DNA from: a virus
IMG/VR virus record: IMGVR_UViG_3300045051_000531
Length of the DNA stretch: 64,000 nt
Direction: 5' to 3' (one strand)
Under the pieces are notes generated by a model. That model was not told the origin of the DNA, ran no database searches, and saw only the letters and a program-made list of their open reading frames with translations. This document shows, piece by piece, positions 4,340-22,459 of the stretch (the first letter of the stretch is position 1; the number at the start of each line of letters is the position of its first letter). The translations under genes and the position numbers were made by a program.

Positions 4340-6093
4340 TGGCTACCTTCGTTCCCACGGTTCGCGTCATCGTTGATGGGACCCCCGTCGACGCCGCGAA
4401 TACCAATGGTCCCATTGCGGATCTCACCCAGCGGACCCAGTGGCTCAAGGATCAGCTCTTGGCCCTCCAGGCCGGGACCCAGCTCATCCTGCGGAACCAG
4501 ACCATCGATCCCGCGGTGATCCCGGGCACCCCGGTGTACCTGGATACCGCCACGGACACCTTCAAGCCGGCGATGGCTGAAGTCGACACCACGAACCTGA
4601 ACCAGGCCTCTGATCGGGCGTTCTGGCAGGGCATCGCGTTGACCGCATCAGGCACCGTTGGCGACATCGTCATCGGTGGCGACATGGTCTTGCCCCCGGC
4701 GACCTGGGCTGCCGCGTTCGACACCGGGATCTTCGCGGCTGGCGACATCTTCCTCGGTGGCGTCGTACCCGGGAAGCTGTCGACGTCAGCGGGCACCGCC
4801 GGGATCTACCTGGGTCACATGCGGATCTCGGGCGAAATGTTGGTCCGTCTGGGCAACCCGGGCGCCTTCCTGGAACACATCCACCTCCAGCGCTTCCTGG
4901 TCGGGTCCCCAGCAGACAGCGCTCCGACGACACCAGCGGTGAACACCCCGCAGACCATCGGAACCCCGGACCCCTCGCAGCAGGGCTGGTTGCCTGCCAA
5001 CGCGACGTACTTCCCGGGCTTCGTGATCGGTGTTCAGATCCCCACGGGTGCCGTGTTCGGCTACAACATCCAGCACCCCGCGGAGACCGCGCTGCGCCAG
5101 GTCTTCCCGGTGCTTCCGCCGGAGAACGCGCAGTTCGATCAGGACGGCCAGGTTCTCAGCACGGATCTCGTCATCATCAACCAGTTCGGGATCTGGTGGA
5201 TGGATGACAGCTACGGACAGGCTCCGTGGCCCGTGGATTACGCGACGTCGTCAACGGCCCCCGAGATCACGCTGTGGACCACGCGGCTCATCGCGGCGGC
5301 CTCCGTCGTGGATCTCGCCGTCAACGAGCTCATCGCGCAGCTCAACGCCGGTCTCGCCGCGGACTTCTCGGTGACCAAGCTGTTCACCTCGGACGCCGGG
5401 ACCATCGAGATCGCGGCTTCCGAGGGTGACGGCGTCACGGGCTACCATGGCGTCGTCACGCTGACTCCCAAGGCAGTGAATGCAGCCAGGTACCGTCGTG
5501 GCATCCTGATCGAATCGGCGTCCTCGCTGGGTGACAACACCACGGGCTACAAGGGCATCATCGACGCCGAGTTCAACGCGGATCTCGAGGCCAAGCACCA
5601 GTTCACCTTGGTGACCGCGGCGCCACAGGACACCATGGCCCCGGTGAGCACCAACGGGTTCTCCGTGGGTGCCGACATCGGGCTCCGTGGCCACCGTCTC
5701 GGCGCCAACGTCGCCGACTTCATCGACTTCCTGATCACTGGTGGTCGGGATCTCGTCGTGGCACCAGCGGAGTACCGGTTGTCGCCGGTGTTCCACTTCG
5801 CCGTGAACACGGCGGCAGCGGTTCCCGTGATCCGGAACTTCGAGGTCCGGTTCTACCGCTTCAAAGTGGGTTCCCCGCTGAGCTCGACGCAGCTCGTGAA
5901 GACCGTCCAGGTCGACGCCCAGACCGGGGTGCCCGGACAGCTCCAGACCGCGGCTCTGGGTCCCTACGCTGACGTCGTGCTCCAGCAGAACGAGCACATC
6001 CTGGTTCGCATCGTGAACAGCACTGGTGGCAACCCGCTGCCCGTGGACACCCTGCGCGTGGTCTCCCTGTACTACGGTCTCACGGAGGCCTGA
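4339..6093 (+). CDS. putative tail/baseplate-associated structural protein
   Basis: 584 aa, beta-rich; N-terminal DGTPVDAANTNGPIADLTQRTQWLK resembles tail-fibre attachment segments. Confidence 0.45.
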   Translation: MATFVPTVRVIVDGTPVDAANTNGPIADLTQRTQWLKDQLLALQAGTQLILRNQTIDPAVIPGTPVYLDTATDTFKPAMAEVDTTNLNQASDRAFWQGIALTASGTVGDIVIGGDMVLPPATWAAAFDTGIFAAGDIFLGGVVPGKLSTSAGTAGIYLGHMRISGEMLVRLGNPGAFLEHIHLQRFLVGSPADSAPTTPAVNTPQTIGTPDPSQQGWLPANATYFPGFVIGVQIPTGAVFGYNIQHPAETALRQVFPVLPPENAQFDQDGQVLSTDLVIINQFGIWWMDDSYGQAPWPVDYATSSTAPEITLWTTRLIAAASVVDLAVNELIAQLNAGLAADFSVTKLFTSDAGTIEIAASEGDGVTGYHGVVTLTPKAVNAARYRRGILIESASSLGDNTTGYKGIIDAEFNADLEAKHQFTLVTAAPQDTMAPVSTNGFSVGADIGLRGHRLGANVADFIDFLITGGRDLVVAPAEYRLSPVFHFAVNTAAAVPVIRNFEVRFYRFKVGSPLSSTQLVKTVQVDAQTGVPGQLQTAALGPYADVVLQQNEHILVRIVNSTGGNPLPVDTLRVVSLYYGLTEA

Positions 6094-17440: not shown

Positions 17441-17625
17441 ACGGGGGTAGCGCAGTCTGGTAGCGCGTCGGGCTCTGTCATACGAGGTCTCCCATCCTTT
17501 AGCCGGGACAGTGGGATCTCAGACAACTTTAGGAGATGTTGAGACCGGGTCGGCTAAACCCGGTTTTGATGTTGCCTGAAGCGATGACCCGAAGGTCGGT
17601 GGTTCAAATCCATCACCCCGTACCA
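17441..17625 (+). tRNA. tRNA-Met(CAU), initiator-like, interrupted by a 108-nt insertion (17476-17583)
   Basis: 5' half ends TCGGG-CTC and 3' half starts ATGA-CCCGA; joining them gives a 77-nt fMet-like cloverleaf with CCA. Confidence 0.85.
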
Positions 17626-17633
17626 TTCATGGA

Positions 17634-17700
17634 ACCGCCAGACCACGTAGCCGCTGGAGCCGGTGCTCCAACGACCGCGTGGTCTGGCGGTATGTTTTTC
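17634..17700 (+). terminator. long hairpin followed by a U-tract
   Basis: Perfect 14-bp inverted repeat (17634-17647 / 17678-17691) then ATGTTTTTC. Confidence 0.55.
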
Positions 17701-17724
17701 TTTACCTATTACACAGGAGGTCAG

Positions 17725-18324
17725 ATGCGCTCAGATCTCGAAGCTTTGGTCGCCCGGTTCGCCGCCAAGGCGCACCTCGGCCAGGTCCGGAAGTACGTCG
17801 CGGCGCCGGAGATGGTGCCCTACATCTTCCACCCCGCCGCCGTCGCCGACATCGTCCGCGACTTCGGTGGAACGGAATCCATGATCTGCGCGGCGTGGCT
17901 CCACGACGTCGTCGAGGACACCCCGGTGACCTTGGCGGACATCGATAGGGAGTTCACGCGGGAATCCGGTCACGGCATCGCGGAGCTCGTCGGCTGGCTC
18001 ACCGATGTTGCCAGACCCAGCGATGGGAACCGTAAGGCTCGGGTCAAGCTGAACCGGGAGCACTCCTGGGCGGCCCCTGTGGAGGCCCAGGTCTGCAAGG
18101 TGGCGGACTGCATCCATAACACGTACAGGATCTACGTGCTGGCTCCCAAGTTCGCTCCGATCTTCATGGCCGAGATCAAGGAGCTCATGGGTGGTCTCGA
18201 TAAGGTCGACCCCAAAATCAAACAGGTCTGGTATGACATGACCGGAACCGATGCGGACGACTTCAAGTACGAGGTCGCATCGCCGGAAACCCGTCAGCTT
18301 ATCGGATCACTAACCGGGCCGTAA
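17725..18324 (+). CDS. HD-domain small alarmone hydrolase-like protein (SpoT/Mesh1-type)
   Basis: Motifs PYIFHP, AAWLHDVVEDT and CKVADCIHN; RBS GGAGG. Confidence 0.85.
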   Translation: MRSDLEALVARFAAKAHLGQVRKYVAAPEMVPYIFHPAAVADIVRDFGGTESMICAAWLHDVVEDTPVTLADIDREFTRESGHGIAELVGWLTDVARPSDGNRKARVKLNREHSWAAPVEAQVCKVADCIHNTYRIYVLAPKFAPIFMAEIKELMGGLDKVDPKIKQVWYDMTGTDADDFKYEVASPETRQLIGSLTGP

Positions 18325-19496: not shown

Positions 19497-19566
19497 ACAG
19501 TCACCTATCAAGCCCATGTCGAGAAGGTCTCGGCGTGGCAGCGCAATCACCCCCACAGGAGACCAT

Positions 19567-19812
19567 ATGCGCAAACACATCAATCCCATTTCCGGCCGGG
19601 CCGGTTTCGAGACGGTCGAGGTGCTCATCGCCCTCGTCCTGCTCATCGCCGTGGCCGTGCTGCTGGTCCCGGCGTTCGTCGACCTGCGCCCGGAGCGCGA
19701 GGTCATGACGGCGCCGAAGCCGGTGGCCACGGTGGCCAAGCCGGTCGTCAAGCCGGCCAAGCCCGTGGTCAAAGAGGCCCCCAAGGAGACGACGCCGTCG
19801 CCGCGGCACTAG
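19567..19812 (+). CDS. small prepilin-like protein with class III signal peptide
   Basis: MRKHINPISGRAG|FETVEVLIALVLLIAVAVLLVPAF, then a Pro/Lys-rich tail; RBS AGGAG. Confidence 0.6.
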   Translation: MRKHINPISGRAGFETVEVLIALVLLIAVAVLLVPAFVDLRPEREVMTAPKPVATVAKPVVKPAKPVVKEAPKETTPSPRH

Positions 19813-19980
19813 TGCCGTGATCTGAGCTCTTTCTCATCTTTCCCTGCAGAGGGGCACCCGGATGGACCGGGTGCTAATGCCCCCGCGGTGGCCCGCGGAC
19901 CGTCCCAAGGCGGCTATTGCAAGTCTGAGATCTGTCATTAGTGTTCCGTCGTTGACAACTAAACGCAATACCATGGTTAT

Positions 19981-20051
19981 GGCGGGGAGCCTCAGAGGTC
20001 GGCTGGTCTCATAAGCCAGCTTAGATGGTTCGACTCCATCCCCCGCAACCA
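19981..20051 (+). tRNA. tRNA-Met/Ile2-like (CAU) with truncated D-arm
   Basis: Loop CTCATAA, T-loop TTCGACT, encoded CCA; D-arm has only a 3-nt loop; G1.A72 mismatch. Confidence 0.65.
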
Positions 20052-20055
20052 CTTA

Positions 20056-20118
20056 GAGGCGCAGCGGCGTCAGGGTTACTTCTTGGAACGAAACACACCC
20101 TGGCTTCATTCTCGCCTC
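20056..20118 (+). ncRNA. Y-RNA-like unit 1 (short)
   Basis: Paired termini GAGGC/GCCTC with shared CAGCGG, GTTACTTC and ATTCTC motifs. Confidence 0.7.
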
Positions 20119-20130
20119 GTTGACAACTTC

Positions 20131-20250
20131 GCCGGCAGCGGTGATCGGGTTACTTCTTTAGTAAAGAAGAGGTCGTTGGTTCGAGTCCAACCAGGGGCAA
20201 CCCTGTAGCTCAGTGGCAGAGCGCTAAACACCTGATCTTTATTCTCCGGC
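20131..20250 (+). ncRNA. Y-RNA-like unit 2 with permuted tRNA module
   Basis: Shared motifs plus anticodon-like arm, T-arm, capped acceptor hairpin and D-arm. Confidence 0.78.
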
Positions 20251-20260
20251 TTTTAGCTTC

Positions 20261-20384
20261 GGCAGTAGCGGTGATTGGGGTTACTTCTCTGATAAAGAAA
20301 AGACCTGGGTTCGACTCCCAGCAGGGCTTCGGCTCTGTAGCTCAACGGTAGAGCGTAAAAACACCTCGATCTATATTCTCTGCC
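20261..20384 (+). ncRNA. Y-RNA-like unit 3 with permuted tRNA module
   Basis: Same architecture as unit 2; loop CTGATAA. Confidence 0.78.
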
Positions 20385-20395
20385 TTTTCAATTTC

Positions 20396-20519
20396 GGGCG
20401 CAGCGGTTCTAGAGTTACTTCTATCCAATCTGCTGGACCGGTTCGACTCCGGAAGGTCATAGACCTTAGTGTAACGGCAGCACAGCGGACCCAAAAGCCT
20501 CTAGGCAGTATTCTCGCCC
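20396..20519 (+). ncRNA. Y-RNA-like unit 4 with permuted tRNA module
   Basis: Shared motifs, T-arm, acceptor hairpin and D-arm; anticodon-like stem poorly paired. Confidence 0.72.
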
Positions 20520-20528
20520 TTGTTCTTC

Positions 20529-20657
20529 GGTGGCAGCGGTGGTCGCGTTACTTCTATACTAAAGAAAAGGTCGGTAGGTTCGACTCCTACCCCAGGGGGC
20601 CAGATCCCCTGGTAGCTCAGCGGTAGAGCGTAAAACACGCGGCTTATATTCTCCACC
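20529..20657 (+). ncRNA. Y-RNA-like unit 5 with permuted tRNA module
   Basis: Same architecture as unit 2; loop ATACTAA. Confidence 0.78.
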
Positions 20658-20666
20658 TTGTCTCTC

Positions 20667-20732
20667 GGTCGCAGCGGCGTCACGGTTACTTCTCTCATAA
20701 AGAAACAACCACCGTGGCGGCTATTCTCGACC
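20667..20732 (+). ncRNA. Y-RNA-like unit 6 (short)
   Basis: Shared motifs; TTCT-CTCATAA-AGAA stem-loop. Confidence 0.7.
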
Positions 20733-20741
20733 TTTCTCCTC

Positions 20742-20803
20742 GCTGGTAGCGGTGCCCCGGTTACTTCAGCCATACGAAACCACCGGTGCGATTATTCTCC
20801 AGC
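20742..20803 (+). ncRNA. Y-RNA-like unit 7 (short)
   Basis: Shared motifs; paired termini GCTG/CAGC. Confidence 0.68.
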
Positions 20804-20813
20804 TTTTCACCCG

Positions 20814-20846
20814 AAGCCCGACGGTAACCCCGTCGGGTTTCTTTTT
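20814..20846 (+). terminator. intrinsic terminator after the ncRNA array
   Basis: GCCCGACGG/CCGTCGGGT stem followed by TTTCTTTTT. Confidence 0.65.
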
Positions 20847-20859
20847 CGAAGGGAGCCCT

Positions 20860-22401
20860 ATGGGCAGGTTCGCAACAAATCCGGCGCTCGCCGCCGGTGC
20901 GGTTCGCGCCGCTGATACCACGAACGCGGCCGGAGGCCGCGCCTACGCCAACGACCCGAAGACGTCGCTGGCCATCCAGCTCGTGTCGAGCTTCGCCTCC
21001 GGTGACCACTACCGGGACGAGGCCGCCCAGCTCAAGGGTCTCCTGGACGCCGTCCAGAAGGTCCCCGATCTCCAGTGGGTCGCCAAGGCGGCGATCTATG
21101 CCCGCGACGTCATGGGCATGAGGACCACGAGCCACTTCGTGACGGCCTGCATCGCGGTCTTGGGCCACGGCCAGCCTTGGCTCAGGAAGTTCTACCAGCG
21201 CGTCGTCCTGCGCCCCGACGATATGTGCGAAGTGTTGGGGGCGTACTGGATGCTGAAGGGCCACACCGGGAAGGGCAAGACGGCGGTGCCGAACGCGCTG
21301 AAGCGCGGCTTCGCGGACCGCTTCGCCCAGCTCACCGGGTACGCCCTGGCGAAGTACCGCGGCGGTGGCCGCGCCGTCAAGCTGATCGACGTGGCCCGCT
21401 TGGTCCACGCCAAGGGCGACCTGGTCACCCAGCTCTGCAAGGGCACCCTGCCCCCGGCGGAGACCTGGGAGGTCGGGATCTCCGGCGCCGGCGATGCCGC
21501 GGCTCGTACCAAGGTCTGGGGCGACCTGCTCCGCACCGGCAAGCTGGGCTACATGGCCACGATGCGGAACCTCCGCAACATCGCCAAGGACGCCCCGGAT
21601 CACCTCGCAGCGGCCCTGGAGGTCATCCGTGACACGGAACGGATGCGCAAGGCCCGGGTGTTCCCGTTCCGCCTGTTCACGGCCTACCGGCTCTTCGAGA
21701 CCACTGAAGGTGCCGAAGGTCTGACCAGGGCCCAGATCCGCGAGATCCACGAGGCCCTCTCGGTGGCCCTGGACGCCTCGACAACCACGGTTCCTAAGTT
21801 CGAGGGCGACTCCTTGGTCGTCATCGACACCTCGGGGTCCATGGAGTCCACGGTGTCCCAGAAGTCGTCGGTCCGCTGCGTCGAGGCAGCGGCGGTCATG
21901 GGGGCCACGGTGCGCCGCCAGAACCCGAAGTGCGACATGGCGATCTTCGCGGACACCTCGAAGTACATCACCACGGGCCCCGCGGCCCGCCCGGTGGTGG
22001 ACGTCGTCGCAGGGGTCCTCGGCAAGATCGGTGACGTCGGGCACGGCACCAACATGAGCTCGATCTTCGGGCTCATCGATCTGGCGCAGTTCAGGCGCAT
22101 CTTCGTGATGTCCGACATGCAGAGCTGGTACGGGGACGAGACTGCGGCCACGAACTGGCTGAACAGGAACCCCAAGAACCACCTCTACGTGTGGAACCTG
22201 CATGGCGACGGGTCCACCCTGGCGGCCCCGGAGAACAAGCGGGTCATCCAGCTCGGCGGGTTCAGCGACAGGATCTGGGATACGATCCCGATGCTGGAGC
22301 AGGGCCCCGCAGGTCTGGTCCAGGCGATCGACGCCTGGGACCCCTGGGCGAAGAAGGCGGCCGATGCCGCCGAGGATCCCGGGGCGGACCCGGTTTCCTG
22401 A
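20860..22401 (+). CDS. rsr: Ro60/Rsr-like TROVE-domain RNA-binding protein with C-terminal VWA domain
   Basis: TTNAAGGRAY, ETWEV..S, LGYMATMRNLRNI, PFRLFTAY, and MIDAS-like IDTSGSM ... VMSDMQ. Confidence 0.92.
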   Translation: MGRFATNPALAAGAVRAADTTNAAGGRAYANDPKTSLAIQLVSSFASGDHYRDEAAQLKGLLDAVQKVPDLQWVAKAAIYARDVMGMRTTSHFVTACIAVLGHGQPWLRKFYQRVVLRPDDMCEVLGAYWMLKGHTGKGKTAVPNALKRGFADRFAQLTGYALAKYRGGGRAVKLIDVARLVHAKGDLVTQLCKGTLPPAETWEVGISGAGDAAARTKVWGDLLRTGKLGYMATMRNLRNIAKDAPDHLAAALEVIRDTERMRKARVFPFRLFTAYRLFETTEGAEGLTRAQIREIHEALSVALDASTTTVPKFEGDSLVVIDTSGSMESTVSQKSSVRCVEAAAVMGATVRRQNPKCDMAIFADTSKYITTGPAARPVVDVVAGVLGKIGDVGHGTNMSSIFGLIDLAQFRRIFVMSDMQSWYGDETAATNWLNRNPKNHLYVWNLHGDGSTLAAPENKRVIQLGGFSDRIWDTIPMLEQGPAGLVQAIDAWDPWAKKAADAAEDPGADPVS

Positions 22402-22422: not shown

Positions 22423-22459
22423 GACGACGCCGTGGTGATCCCACGGCGTCGTCGTTTTC
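22423..22459 (+). terminator. intrinsic terminator
   Basis: 13-bp stem GACGACGCCGTGG/CCACGGCGTCGTC followed by GTTTTC. Confidence 0.6.

What the first reader, a model, noticed from the sequence alone, without database searches (positions are those of the whole stretch)
20056..22401. Array of seven Y-RNA-like units in front of Ro60/TROVE
Seen: seven tandem units with U-rich spacers. Each has covarying paired termini (GAGGC/GCCTC, GCCG/CGGC, GGCA/TGCC, GGGC/GCCC, GGTG/CACC, GGTC/GACC, GCTG/CAGC), an invariant internal loop (GYAGCGG opposite ATTCTC), a second covarying helix and GTTACTTC. A terminator and a Ro60 gene follow. Known: bacterial Ro60 binds adjacent Y RNAs, some of them tRNA mimics (YrlA), and acts in RNA decay and repair. 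Inference: one phage Ro60 loaded with seven interchangeable RNA partners.
Basis: partly seen in the sequence, partly recalled or inferred. Interest (0 to 1): 0.8.

Follow-up and report, generated by a model that had tools for sequence, protein, structure and literature searches.

The report
Seven Y-RNA genes before phage Ro60
A complete 191-kb phage carries seven small RNA genes in a row, all with the same conserved "handle" and four with a tRNA look-alike body, just in front of its gene for the RNA-binding ring protein Ro60. It is a large, somewhat divergent example of the known Ro60/Y-RNA partnership, and similar arrays turn out to be common in phages.

Summary
tRNA-Met (19978-20051) is followed by seven units (20056-20803), a terminator (20813-20841) and a Ro60 gene (20860-22401; Pfam TROVE 5.9e-25 plus vWA_Ro60).

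All units share one handle:
- a covarying 5-6 bp terminal stem;
- a bulged pyrimidine;
- an AG:CU pair step;
- an internal loop (CGG opposite AUU);
- a covarying second stem;
- GUUACUUC.

Units 2-5 also carry a circularly permuted tRNA-like body (T arm, closed acceptor hairpin, D arm), as in YrlA. Units 1, 6 and 7 are minimal.

Rfam YrlA matches only below threshold (42.7 against 69 bits), and the published GNCGAA motif is replaced by G-Y-AG.

Four relatives with 48-52% identical Ro60 have the same layout (tRNA-Met in three of them, then 4-6 units, terminator, Ro60). A covariance model finds 1-5 units beside Ro60 in most of about 80 other phage loci. By eye there are about 8 in the cultured Caulobacter phage CcrColossus. 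Seven is therefore high but not unique.

Binding to Ro60 and processing into discrete RNAs are inferred, not shown. A new detail is an anticodon-loop-like hairpin that canonical YrlA lacks. This scan has already found comparable arrays on other DNA.

Verdict: real, and a new variant of a known kind.

The parts
19978..20051 (+). tRNA-Met (CAU) that heads the array. The same tRNA precedes the arrays of relatives L124, L126 and L127.
   Evidence: ARAGORN. Rfam tRNA scores it only 26.8 bits, against a gathering score of 29.
20056..20118 (+). Unit 1, minimal: the handle plus a small hairpin (loop UUGGAAC).
   Evidence: Models: R1 53.4 bits, R2 45.4 bits, R3 38 bits.
20131..20250 (+). Unit 2, long: handle, anticodon-loop-like hairpin, GAGGUC, T arm, closed acceptor hairpin, D arm.
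   Evidence: Rfam YrlA 42.7 bits, E 8.2e-8. R2 103.2 bits. Fold.
20261..20384 (+). Unit 3, long, YrlA-type body. Hairpin loop is CUGAUAA.
   Evidence: Rfam YrlA 36.1 bits on the tRNA-like body. R2 101.9 bits.
20396..20519 (+). Unit 4, long, YrlA-type body with a divergent D arm and no canonical small hairpin.
   Evidence: R2 71.7 bits. R3 68.6 bits.
20529..20657 (+). Unit 5, long, YrlA-type body. The acceptor-like stem has 7 bp and its loop reads G-CCA-GAU.
   Evidence: Rfam YrlA 26.1 bits. R2 107.6 bits. Sequence read directly.
20667..20732 (+). Unit 6, minimal. Hairpin loop is CUCAUAA.
   Evidence: R1 76.3 bits. R3 34.2 bits.
20742..20803 (+). Unit 7, minimal.
   Evidence: R1 63.6 bits. R3 30.6 bits.
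20813..20841 (+). Intrinsic-terminator-like hairpin (12 bp) followed by a U tract, between the array and the Ro60 ribosome-binding site. An equivalent hairpin sits at the same place in L124, L126 and L127.
20860..22401 (+). Ro60 (TROVE + vWA) gene, 513 aa. The vWA metal-site residues D323, S325, S327, T397 and D419 are invariant across 18 relatives.

Best explanation
The seven units are Y RNAs of the YrlA/YrlB kind, the RNA partners of the phage's own Ro60.

Most likely they are transcribed together with tRNA-Met as one precursor that mostly stops at the hairpin at 20813-20841. Ro60 mRNA would then arise by read-through, which keeps the RNAs in excess over the protein. The precursor is cut in the pyrimidine-rich spacers into seven RNAs.

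Each RNA offers the same handle to the Ro60 ring: terminal stem, bulged pyrimidine, AG:CU step, CGG/AUU internal loop, second stem, and a GUUACUUC//AAAC junction. The variable apical part is either a circularly permuted tRNA-like body (units 2-5) or a bare hairpin (units 1, 6, 7). As shown for Deinococcus Yrn1 and phiLo Yrl RNAs, that part would gate the ring or tether it to different partners, such as host PNPase or tRNA-binding enzymes. That would redirect structured-RNA decay or surveillance during infection.

Shown here: the sequence anatomy, covariation, the identity of the protein, and conserved linkage to Ro60.

Inferred: co-transcription, processing, binding, and the effector partners.
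For: - The motifs occur seven times in register and nowhere else in the window or the whole phage genome.
- Both handle helices covary.
- On 63 units from 35 phage loci, 96% of pair cells are standard pairs, against 61% in shuffles and 42-50% when partners are slid. 29 of 30 pairs show compensatory change, including the AG:CU step.
- YrlA is the only Rfam family hit by the units (relatives).
- The gene that follows is Ro60.
- Relatives with 48-52% identical Ro60 have the same layout; three of the four keep the tRNA-Met in front.
- R2 and R3 find units on the Ro60 strand, mostly just upstream, in most of about 80 further phage Ro60 loci and in the cultured phages CcrColossus, Kikimora and Atuin.
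- The handle loop is uniform within each array but differs between Ro60 lineages, which points to co-evolution with the adjacent protein.
- Literature: Y RNAs lie within a few kb of Ro60, each studied species has at least two, M. smegmatis processes its two from one precursor, and 22 phages have them (PMC4201824). phiLo Ro60 binds two upstream Yrl RNAs and forms a complex with host PNPase (PMC12135203). A Listeria phage has highly abundant transcripts upstream of its Rsr-like gene (PMC12282133).
Against: - There are no expression or binding data for this phage.
- Rfam YrlA scores stay below the gathering score (42.7 against 69 bits).
- The published Ro-recognition motif GNCGAAN0-1G is absent as such. 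Only G-Y-A-G is kept, and the rest of that position lies in a freely covarying stem.
- No promoter was found, though the phage may use its own polymerase.
- The A5 alignment used for the pair counts was fitted to the model, which flatters the structure.
Confidence: 0.8

Rival explanations
1. The units are tRNA mimics that act on their own, for instance as decoys or sponges for host tRNA-targeting nucleases or tRNA-binding enzymes. On this reading Ro60 is only a neighbour, or merely stabilises them.
For: Four units keep a full tRNA elbow. Five of the seven have a 7-nt hairpin loop with U at position 2 and A at position 6, each with a different central triplet. The region is rich in tRNA genes.
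Against: The most conserved part of every unit is the non-tRNA handle, and three units have nothing else. The handle changes in step with the Ro60 lineage. Linkage to Ro60 holds across very different phages.
Confidence: 0.08
2. The array is a cis-acting leader of the Ro60 mRNA: a series of attenuator or protein-binding structures that controls read-through of the terminator, rather than a set of trans-acting RNAs.
For: The terminator lies between the array and the ribosome-binding site, with no room for a promoter. The arrangement is conserved.
Against: Seven independently closed, covarying units with tRNA-like bodies are not needed for attenuation. In Arthrobacter phage Atuin and loci L179 and L189 the units lie downstream of Ro60. 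Homologous YrlA RNAs are known to be stable trans-acting RNAs (PMC4201824).
Confidence: 0.05
3. The long units are circularly permuted tRNA genes that mature into working tRNAs. RNase P would cut them, and CCA would be added or exposed.
For: Unit 5 has a 7-bp acceptor stem and an encoded G-CCA in its loop. M. smegmatis YrlA is cut by RNase P and receives CCA (PMC4201824). tRNA finders misread such units as tRNAs.
Against: The other acceptor stems have 5-6 bp with 3-4 nt loops and no CCA. The handle would remain inserted between the D arm and the small hairpin. Three units have no tRNA body. The invariant handle has no role in a tRNA.
Confidence: 0.03
4. The array is decaying debris of duplicated tRNA genes and has no function.
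For: The units are plausibly derived from tRNA dimers (a model discussed in bioRxiv 10.1101/312249).
Against: Compensatory changes keep every helix intact. Motifs are invariant across loci whose Ro60 proteins are only 30-50% identical.
Confidence: 0.02

Closest known systems
YrlA / YrlB Y RNAs with bacterial and phage Ro60 (Rsr): Salmonella, M. smegmatis, mycobacteriophages, CcrColossus (Chen et al. 2014, PMC4201824; Rfam RF02553; YrlA structure, bioRxiv 10.1101/312249)
   Same: - Same strand as Ro60 and within 1 kb of it.
- A basal stem-loop-stem module plus an apical body ordered T arm, closed acceptor hairpin, UA, D arm.
- The conserved UA after the second stem: UUAC here, CUAc in the Rfam consensus.
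- A mix of tRNA-like and short hairpin RNAs.
- Probably one precursor.
   Different: - Seven units instead of the two studied per species.
- The GNCGAAN0-1G motif is reduced to G-Y-A-G followed by CGG.
- An extra 4-5 bp hairpin with an anticodon-loop-like 7-nt loop sits between the UUAC and the variable-loop-like GAGGUC. [quoted passage not shown]
Thermus phage phiLo Ro60 with Yrl1 and Yrl2 (PMC12135203; PDB 9KOP, 9L5Y)
   Same: A phage Ro60 with Y-like RNAs directly upstream. The protein is homologous over its full length (E 1e-19). Binding and a ternary complex with host PNPase were shown there.
   Different: phiLo has two RNAs with a CGAA motif and no tRNA-like body. My models find no significant unit upstream of phiLo Ro60.
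Metazoan Y RNAs bound by Ro60 (Xenopus structures 1YVP/1YVR)
   Same: A terminal helix with a single bulged pyrimidine followed by a short paired step and an internal loop. Several Y RNAs serve one protein.
   Different: No sequence similarity. The vertebrate genes are dispersed and transcribed by Pol III. They have no tRNA-like body.

Membership tests
Ro60 / TROVE protein | TROVE (HEAT-repeat ring) domain followed by a vWA domain with a metal-binding site | tested here: met
   Pfam TROVE 88.8 bits (cut-off 23) and vWA_Ro60 30 bits (cut-off 27.7). Full-length match to 9KOP. D-x-S-x-S, T and D are invariant.
YrlA (Rfam RF02553) | Score at or above Rfam's gathering score (69 bits) | tested here: not met
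   Best scores are 42.7, 36.1 and 26.1 bits. Relatives score 38-42 bits. At the gathering score there are no YrlA hits even in CcrColossus.
YrlA (Chen et al. 2014 criteria) | Encoded within 4 kb of a Ro60 gene, usually on the same strand | tested here: met
   The units end 57 nt before the Ro60 start codon, on the same strand.
YrlA (Chen et al. 2014 criteria) | GNCGAAN0-1G motif near the 5' end | tested here: not met
   The invariant word is G-Y-AGCGG. The bases before it covary freely as a stem, and three of the seven units (1, 4, 6) happen to read GNCG there. CcrColossus units read GGCGYAG, which is intermediate.
YrlA (Chen et al. 2014; Wang et al. 2018) | tRNA-like domain: T stem-loop, acceptor-like stem closed by a loop, UA linker, D stem-loop, in that order | tested here: met
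   Units 2-5 have it. RNAalifold predicts all three arms with compensatory changes. T loop UUCGA and D loop GG are kept. Units 1, 6 and 7 lack the domain, as YrlB-type RNAs do.
Y RNA (functional definition) | Physically bound and stabilised by Ro60 | not testable with these tools
   This needs RIP, EMSA or a co-structure.

The most novel reading that the evidence does not exclude
The arrays may be a phage 'library' of handle-tagged, circularly permuted tRNAs that keep an anticodon-like stem-loop, with a different triplet in each unit. Ro60 would display or protect these as decoys or sensors for host tRNA-targeting defences, or use them to recruit tRNA-specific enzymes. The retained anticodon arm, and units that embed a whole normal-order tRNA, would also be living intermediates for the proposed origin of YrlA from tRNA dimers.
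Probability: 0.12. Interest if true: 0.75.

Novelty: new variant of a known kind. Interest (0 to 1): 0.5.

Why it matters
Ro60/Y-RNA particles are studied as one protein with one to four RNAs. Here a complete phage genome carries seven, and comparable arrays appear beside Ro60 in many phages, including about eight units read by eye in the cultured phage CcrColossus.

This suggests that phages use Ro60 as a platform loaded with a panel of tRNA-like adaptors. It gives a concrete, mutable handle for binding studies and points to a tractable host-phage pair for them (Caulobacter and CcrColossus). It also shows that the Rfam YrlA model misses every phage unit I tested it on, so some are annotated as tRNAs.

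Tried and rejected
- **Pattern scan of IMG/VR.** A scan for GCAGCGG-N7-8-GTTACTTC gave 118+ single hits. About that many are expected by chance for 15 specified bases. A structure-aware script found the full unit only in the window's own clade, so I dropped those hits.
- **Single-protein locus search.** The search for related loci with the protein alone found nothing. An 18-protein alignment was needed.
- **Short-unit model R1.** It does not recognise the long units.
- **TTGACA as a promoter.** TTGACA words in two spacers looked like -35 boxes, but no -10 box follows, and the promoter scan found none.
- **Alternative closing helix.** A helix UUUAG/CUAAA in unit 2 is not conserved in the other units.
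- **RNA-repair partners.** I looked for them in the phage: there is no RtcB and no CCA-adding enzyme. The neighbours are mostly unannotated, apart from an HD_4 hydrolase and a helicase.
- **Supplementary tables.** Those of Chen et al. 2014, which give copies per genome, are not held, nor is the 2020 Annual Review.

Full report
**What is there**

The window belongs to a complete 191.5-kb phage record with terminal repeats. ARAGORN finds a tRNA-Met at 19978-20051. Seven units follow directly, at 20056-20118, 20131-20250, 20261-20384, 20396-20519, 20529-20657, 20667-20732 and 20742-20803. They are separated by pyrimidine-rich spacers of 9-12 nt.

After the units come a 12-bp terminator-like hairpin with a U tract at 20813-20841, a ribosome-binding site, and an ORF at 20860-22401. 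That ORF matches Pfam TROVE (5.9e-25) and vWA_Ro60. It aligns over its whole length with the solved Ro60 of Thermus phage phiLo (E 1e-19).

GTTACTTC occurs seven times in 64 kb, all in this array, against 0.56 expected. AGCGG-N7-8-GTTACTTC occurs seven times against none expected.

**Anatomy of a unit**

Every unit has the following parts:
- a 5-6 bp terminal stem whose sequence differs in all seven but always pairs;
- a bulged C or U;
- AG paired with CU;
- an internal loop (CGG opposite two to four variable bases plus AUU);
- a second stem of 7-8 bp;
- the word GUUACUUC, facing an A-rich AAAC(A) on the 3' side.

The second stem covaries. Each 5' strand binds its own 3' strand at a mean of -10.8 kcal/mol, against -5.2 for non-cognate strands. 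For the seven window units the true assignment is the best of all 5040 permutations.

Units 2-5 carry an apical body in this order: small hairpin, GAGGUC-like linker, T arm (GGUUCGAnUCC), an acceptor-like hairpin closed by a 3-7 nt loop, UA, and a D arm (AGCUCAGYGGYAGAGC). RNAalifold predicts all of these arms with compensatory changes. Units 1, 6 and 7 have only the small hairpin.

**What it resembles**

YrlA (RF02553) is the only Rfam family hit by the units. It scores 42.7, 36.1 and 26.1 bits (E 8e-8 to 5e-3 in a 1.3-kb search), below the gathering score of 69. The order of T arm, closed acceptor stem, UA and D arm is the published YrlA body (PMC4201824; bioRxiv 10.1101/312249). So is the conserved UA after the second stem.

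Two published features are not met:
- The GNCGAAN0-1G motif is reduced here to G-Y-A-G, with the preceding bases free to covary.
- Published YrlA 'lacks the anticodon loop', whereas these units have an extra hairpin at that place.

**Relatives**

The four closest Ro60 proteins (48-52% identical) come from metagenomic contigs. Each has a gene-free stretch of about 800 nt upstream.

In three of them that stretch contains a tRNA-Met followed by units with the same handle, then an equivalent terminator hairpin. L124 has 5 units, L126 has 6, and the cut contig L127 has at least 4. The fourth, L122, is more divergent and gave only two model hits, at 4571-4635 and 4653-4752.

Some units in the relatives carry other bodies. 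These include a T arm only, or a whole normal-order tRNA-like sequence that ARAGORN calls a tRNA (L124 2146-2219).

**Breadth**

At least 580 IMG/VR contigs encode a relative of this Ro60. A covariance model of nine long units (R2) found full-length matches in most of the 80 loci fetched. The matches lie on the Ro60 strand, mostly just upstream of the gene.

Sixty-three of these units from 35 loci were aligned to the model. 96% of pair cells are standard pairs, against 61% after shuffling and 42-50% when partners are slid by 1-3 columns. 29 of 30 pairs show changes on both sides, including the two AG:CU pairs next to the bulge. The alignment was fitted to the model, so these figures lean towards the structure. 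The independent RNAalifold run and the duplex test agree with them.

A broader model (R3) counted 7 units in the window at E below 0.01, and 5 or fewer in each of the other 82 loci searched. Reading the sequences by eye adds short or divergent units:
- about 8 in L200 and 6 in L202, the latter interleaved with tRNAs;
- 8 upstream of the TROVE gene gp139 of the cultured Caulobacter phage CcrColossus;
- 4 in Brevundimonas phage Kikimora;
- 3-4 downstream of Ro60 in Arthrobacter phage Atuin.

Rfam's YrlA model reaches its gathering score in none of these. One CcrColossus unit is annotated in GenBank as tRNA-Gln. Seven is therefore at the high end but not unique.

**Why Ro60 is the likely partner**

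The 5' loop of the handle is uniform within each array but differs between Ro60 lineages:
- YAGCGG in the window clade;
- UAGYGAU in L145;
- UAGUGA in L174 and L188;
- YAGUCA in L156;
- YAGUAA in L191;
- GGCGYAG in the Caulobacter and Brevundimonas phages.

One shared, co-evolving trans partner encoded next door is the simplest explanation. The geometry also recalls the Ro-binding site of animal Y RNAs: a helix, a single bulged pyrimidine, a short paired step and an internal loop.

The literature supplies the mechanism by analogy:
- Y RNAs gate Ro60 and tether it to PNPase (PMC4201824).
- phiLo Ro60 binds two upstream RNAs and forms a complex with host PNPase (PMC12135203).
- A Listeria phage has very abundant transcripts just upstream of its Rsr-like gene (PMC12282133).

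Nothing here shows binding or processing for this phage.

**Expression logic (inference)**

There is no room for a promoter between the terminator and the Ro60 start codon. Ro60 mRNA would therefore have to arise by read-through, which leaves the RNAs in excess. No sigma-70-like promoter was found.

**The small hairpin**

In the window, five of the seven units have a 3-5 bp stem starting in UUC with a 7-nt loop. That loop has U at position 2 and A at position 6, and the central triplets all differ: GGA, AGU, GAU, ACU and CAU.

In the wider family, 30 of 63 long units have such a hairpin and 18 of those have 7-nt loops. In these 18 loops, position 2 is U in 16, position 6 is A in 16 and position 7 is A in all 18. 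The variable stem positions change in a compensatory way: UCGA/UCGA, UCGU/ACGA, UCGC/GCGG, UCCA/UGGA and UCUA/UAGA.

This looks like an anticodon stem-loop kept in its proper place before the variable-loop-like linker and the T arm. Topologically it could equally be a long variable arm. Its role is unknown.

**Context**

The phage has no RtcB and no CCA-adding enzyme. Nearby genes are mostly unannotated, apart from an HD_4 hydrolase and a helicase.

**Earlier notes of this scan**

Other agents reported comparable Ro60-linked RNA arrays in other phage genomes. First readers also noted the anticodon-like loops on this same stretch. I reached the structure and the loop statistics from my own analyses. 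The recurrence means that this is a family trait rather than a singular find.

**Verdict**

The feature is real and well conserved, and it is best read as a seven-member Y-RNA array serving a phage Ro60. The kind is known: YrlA/YrlB with Ro60, phages included. What is new is the variant handle, the extra anticodon-like hairpin, and the size and diversity of the arrays. I found no paper in the held library that describes such arrays.

Noticed in passing
window 19845-19914 (+): A Twister-P5 ribozyme-like sequence lies between ORF 19516-19812 and the tRNA-Met that heads the array. It scores 31.8 bits against a gathering score of 37.6 (E 2e-4 in a 1.3-kb search). It keeps the GCAGAGGG, UAAUGC and GUCCCAAG core words and three hairpins. 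If active, it could cut the RNA array free from the upstream mRNA. I did not see it in relatives, whose flanks are short.
   Followed up: partly
window 19978-20051: The tRNA-Met in front of the array has an odd D arm. It scores only 26.8 bits with Rfam tRNA (gathering score 29), whereas the equivalent tRNA-Met genes of L124, L126 and L127 score 62-73 bits.
   Followed up: partly
window 20529-20657 (unit 5): The acceptor-like hairpin has 7 bp and its loop reads G-CCA-GAU, that is, an encoded discriminator plus CCA. This resembles M. smegmatis YrlA, which RNase P cleaves. The other window units have 5-6 bp stems and no CCA.
   Followed up: no
L124 2107-2239; L126 190-317: Two units in relatives carry a normal-order tRNA-like body (D arm, anticodon arm, T arm) inside the same handle. 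ARAGORN calls L124 2146-2219 a tRNA with a 4-base anticodon.
   Followed up: partly
L208 (Caulobacter phage CcrColossus JX100810.1, record about 108500-109700): About eight Y-like units lie upstream of the TROVE gene gp139 in a cultured phage. One of them is annotated in GenBank as tRNA-Gln. Rfam YrlA at its gathering score finds none of them.
   Followed up: partly
L202 2018-2960: In this distant phage, six Y-like units are interleaved with three tRNA-like genes. Rfam tRNA hits two (2163-2223, 2371-2442), ARAGORN calls one (tRNA-Lys 2371-2445), and the third was read by eye. All lie upstream of Ro60. ARAGORN misreads the 5' half of one unit as tRNA-Asn.
   Followed up: no
window 22424-22459 (+): A second strong hairpin with a U tract follows directly after the Ro60 stop codon. 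Ro60 therefore looks like the last gene of this transcription unit.
   Followed up: no
window 17536-18321 (+): An HD_4 (RelA/SpoT-type HD hydrolase) domain protein is encoded 1.6 kb upstream of the array, within the tRNA-rich region.
   Followed up: no
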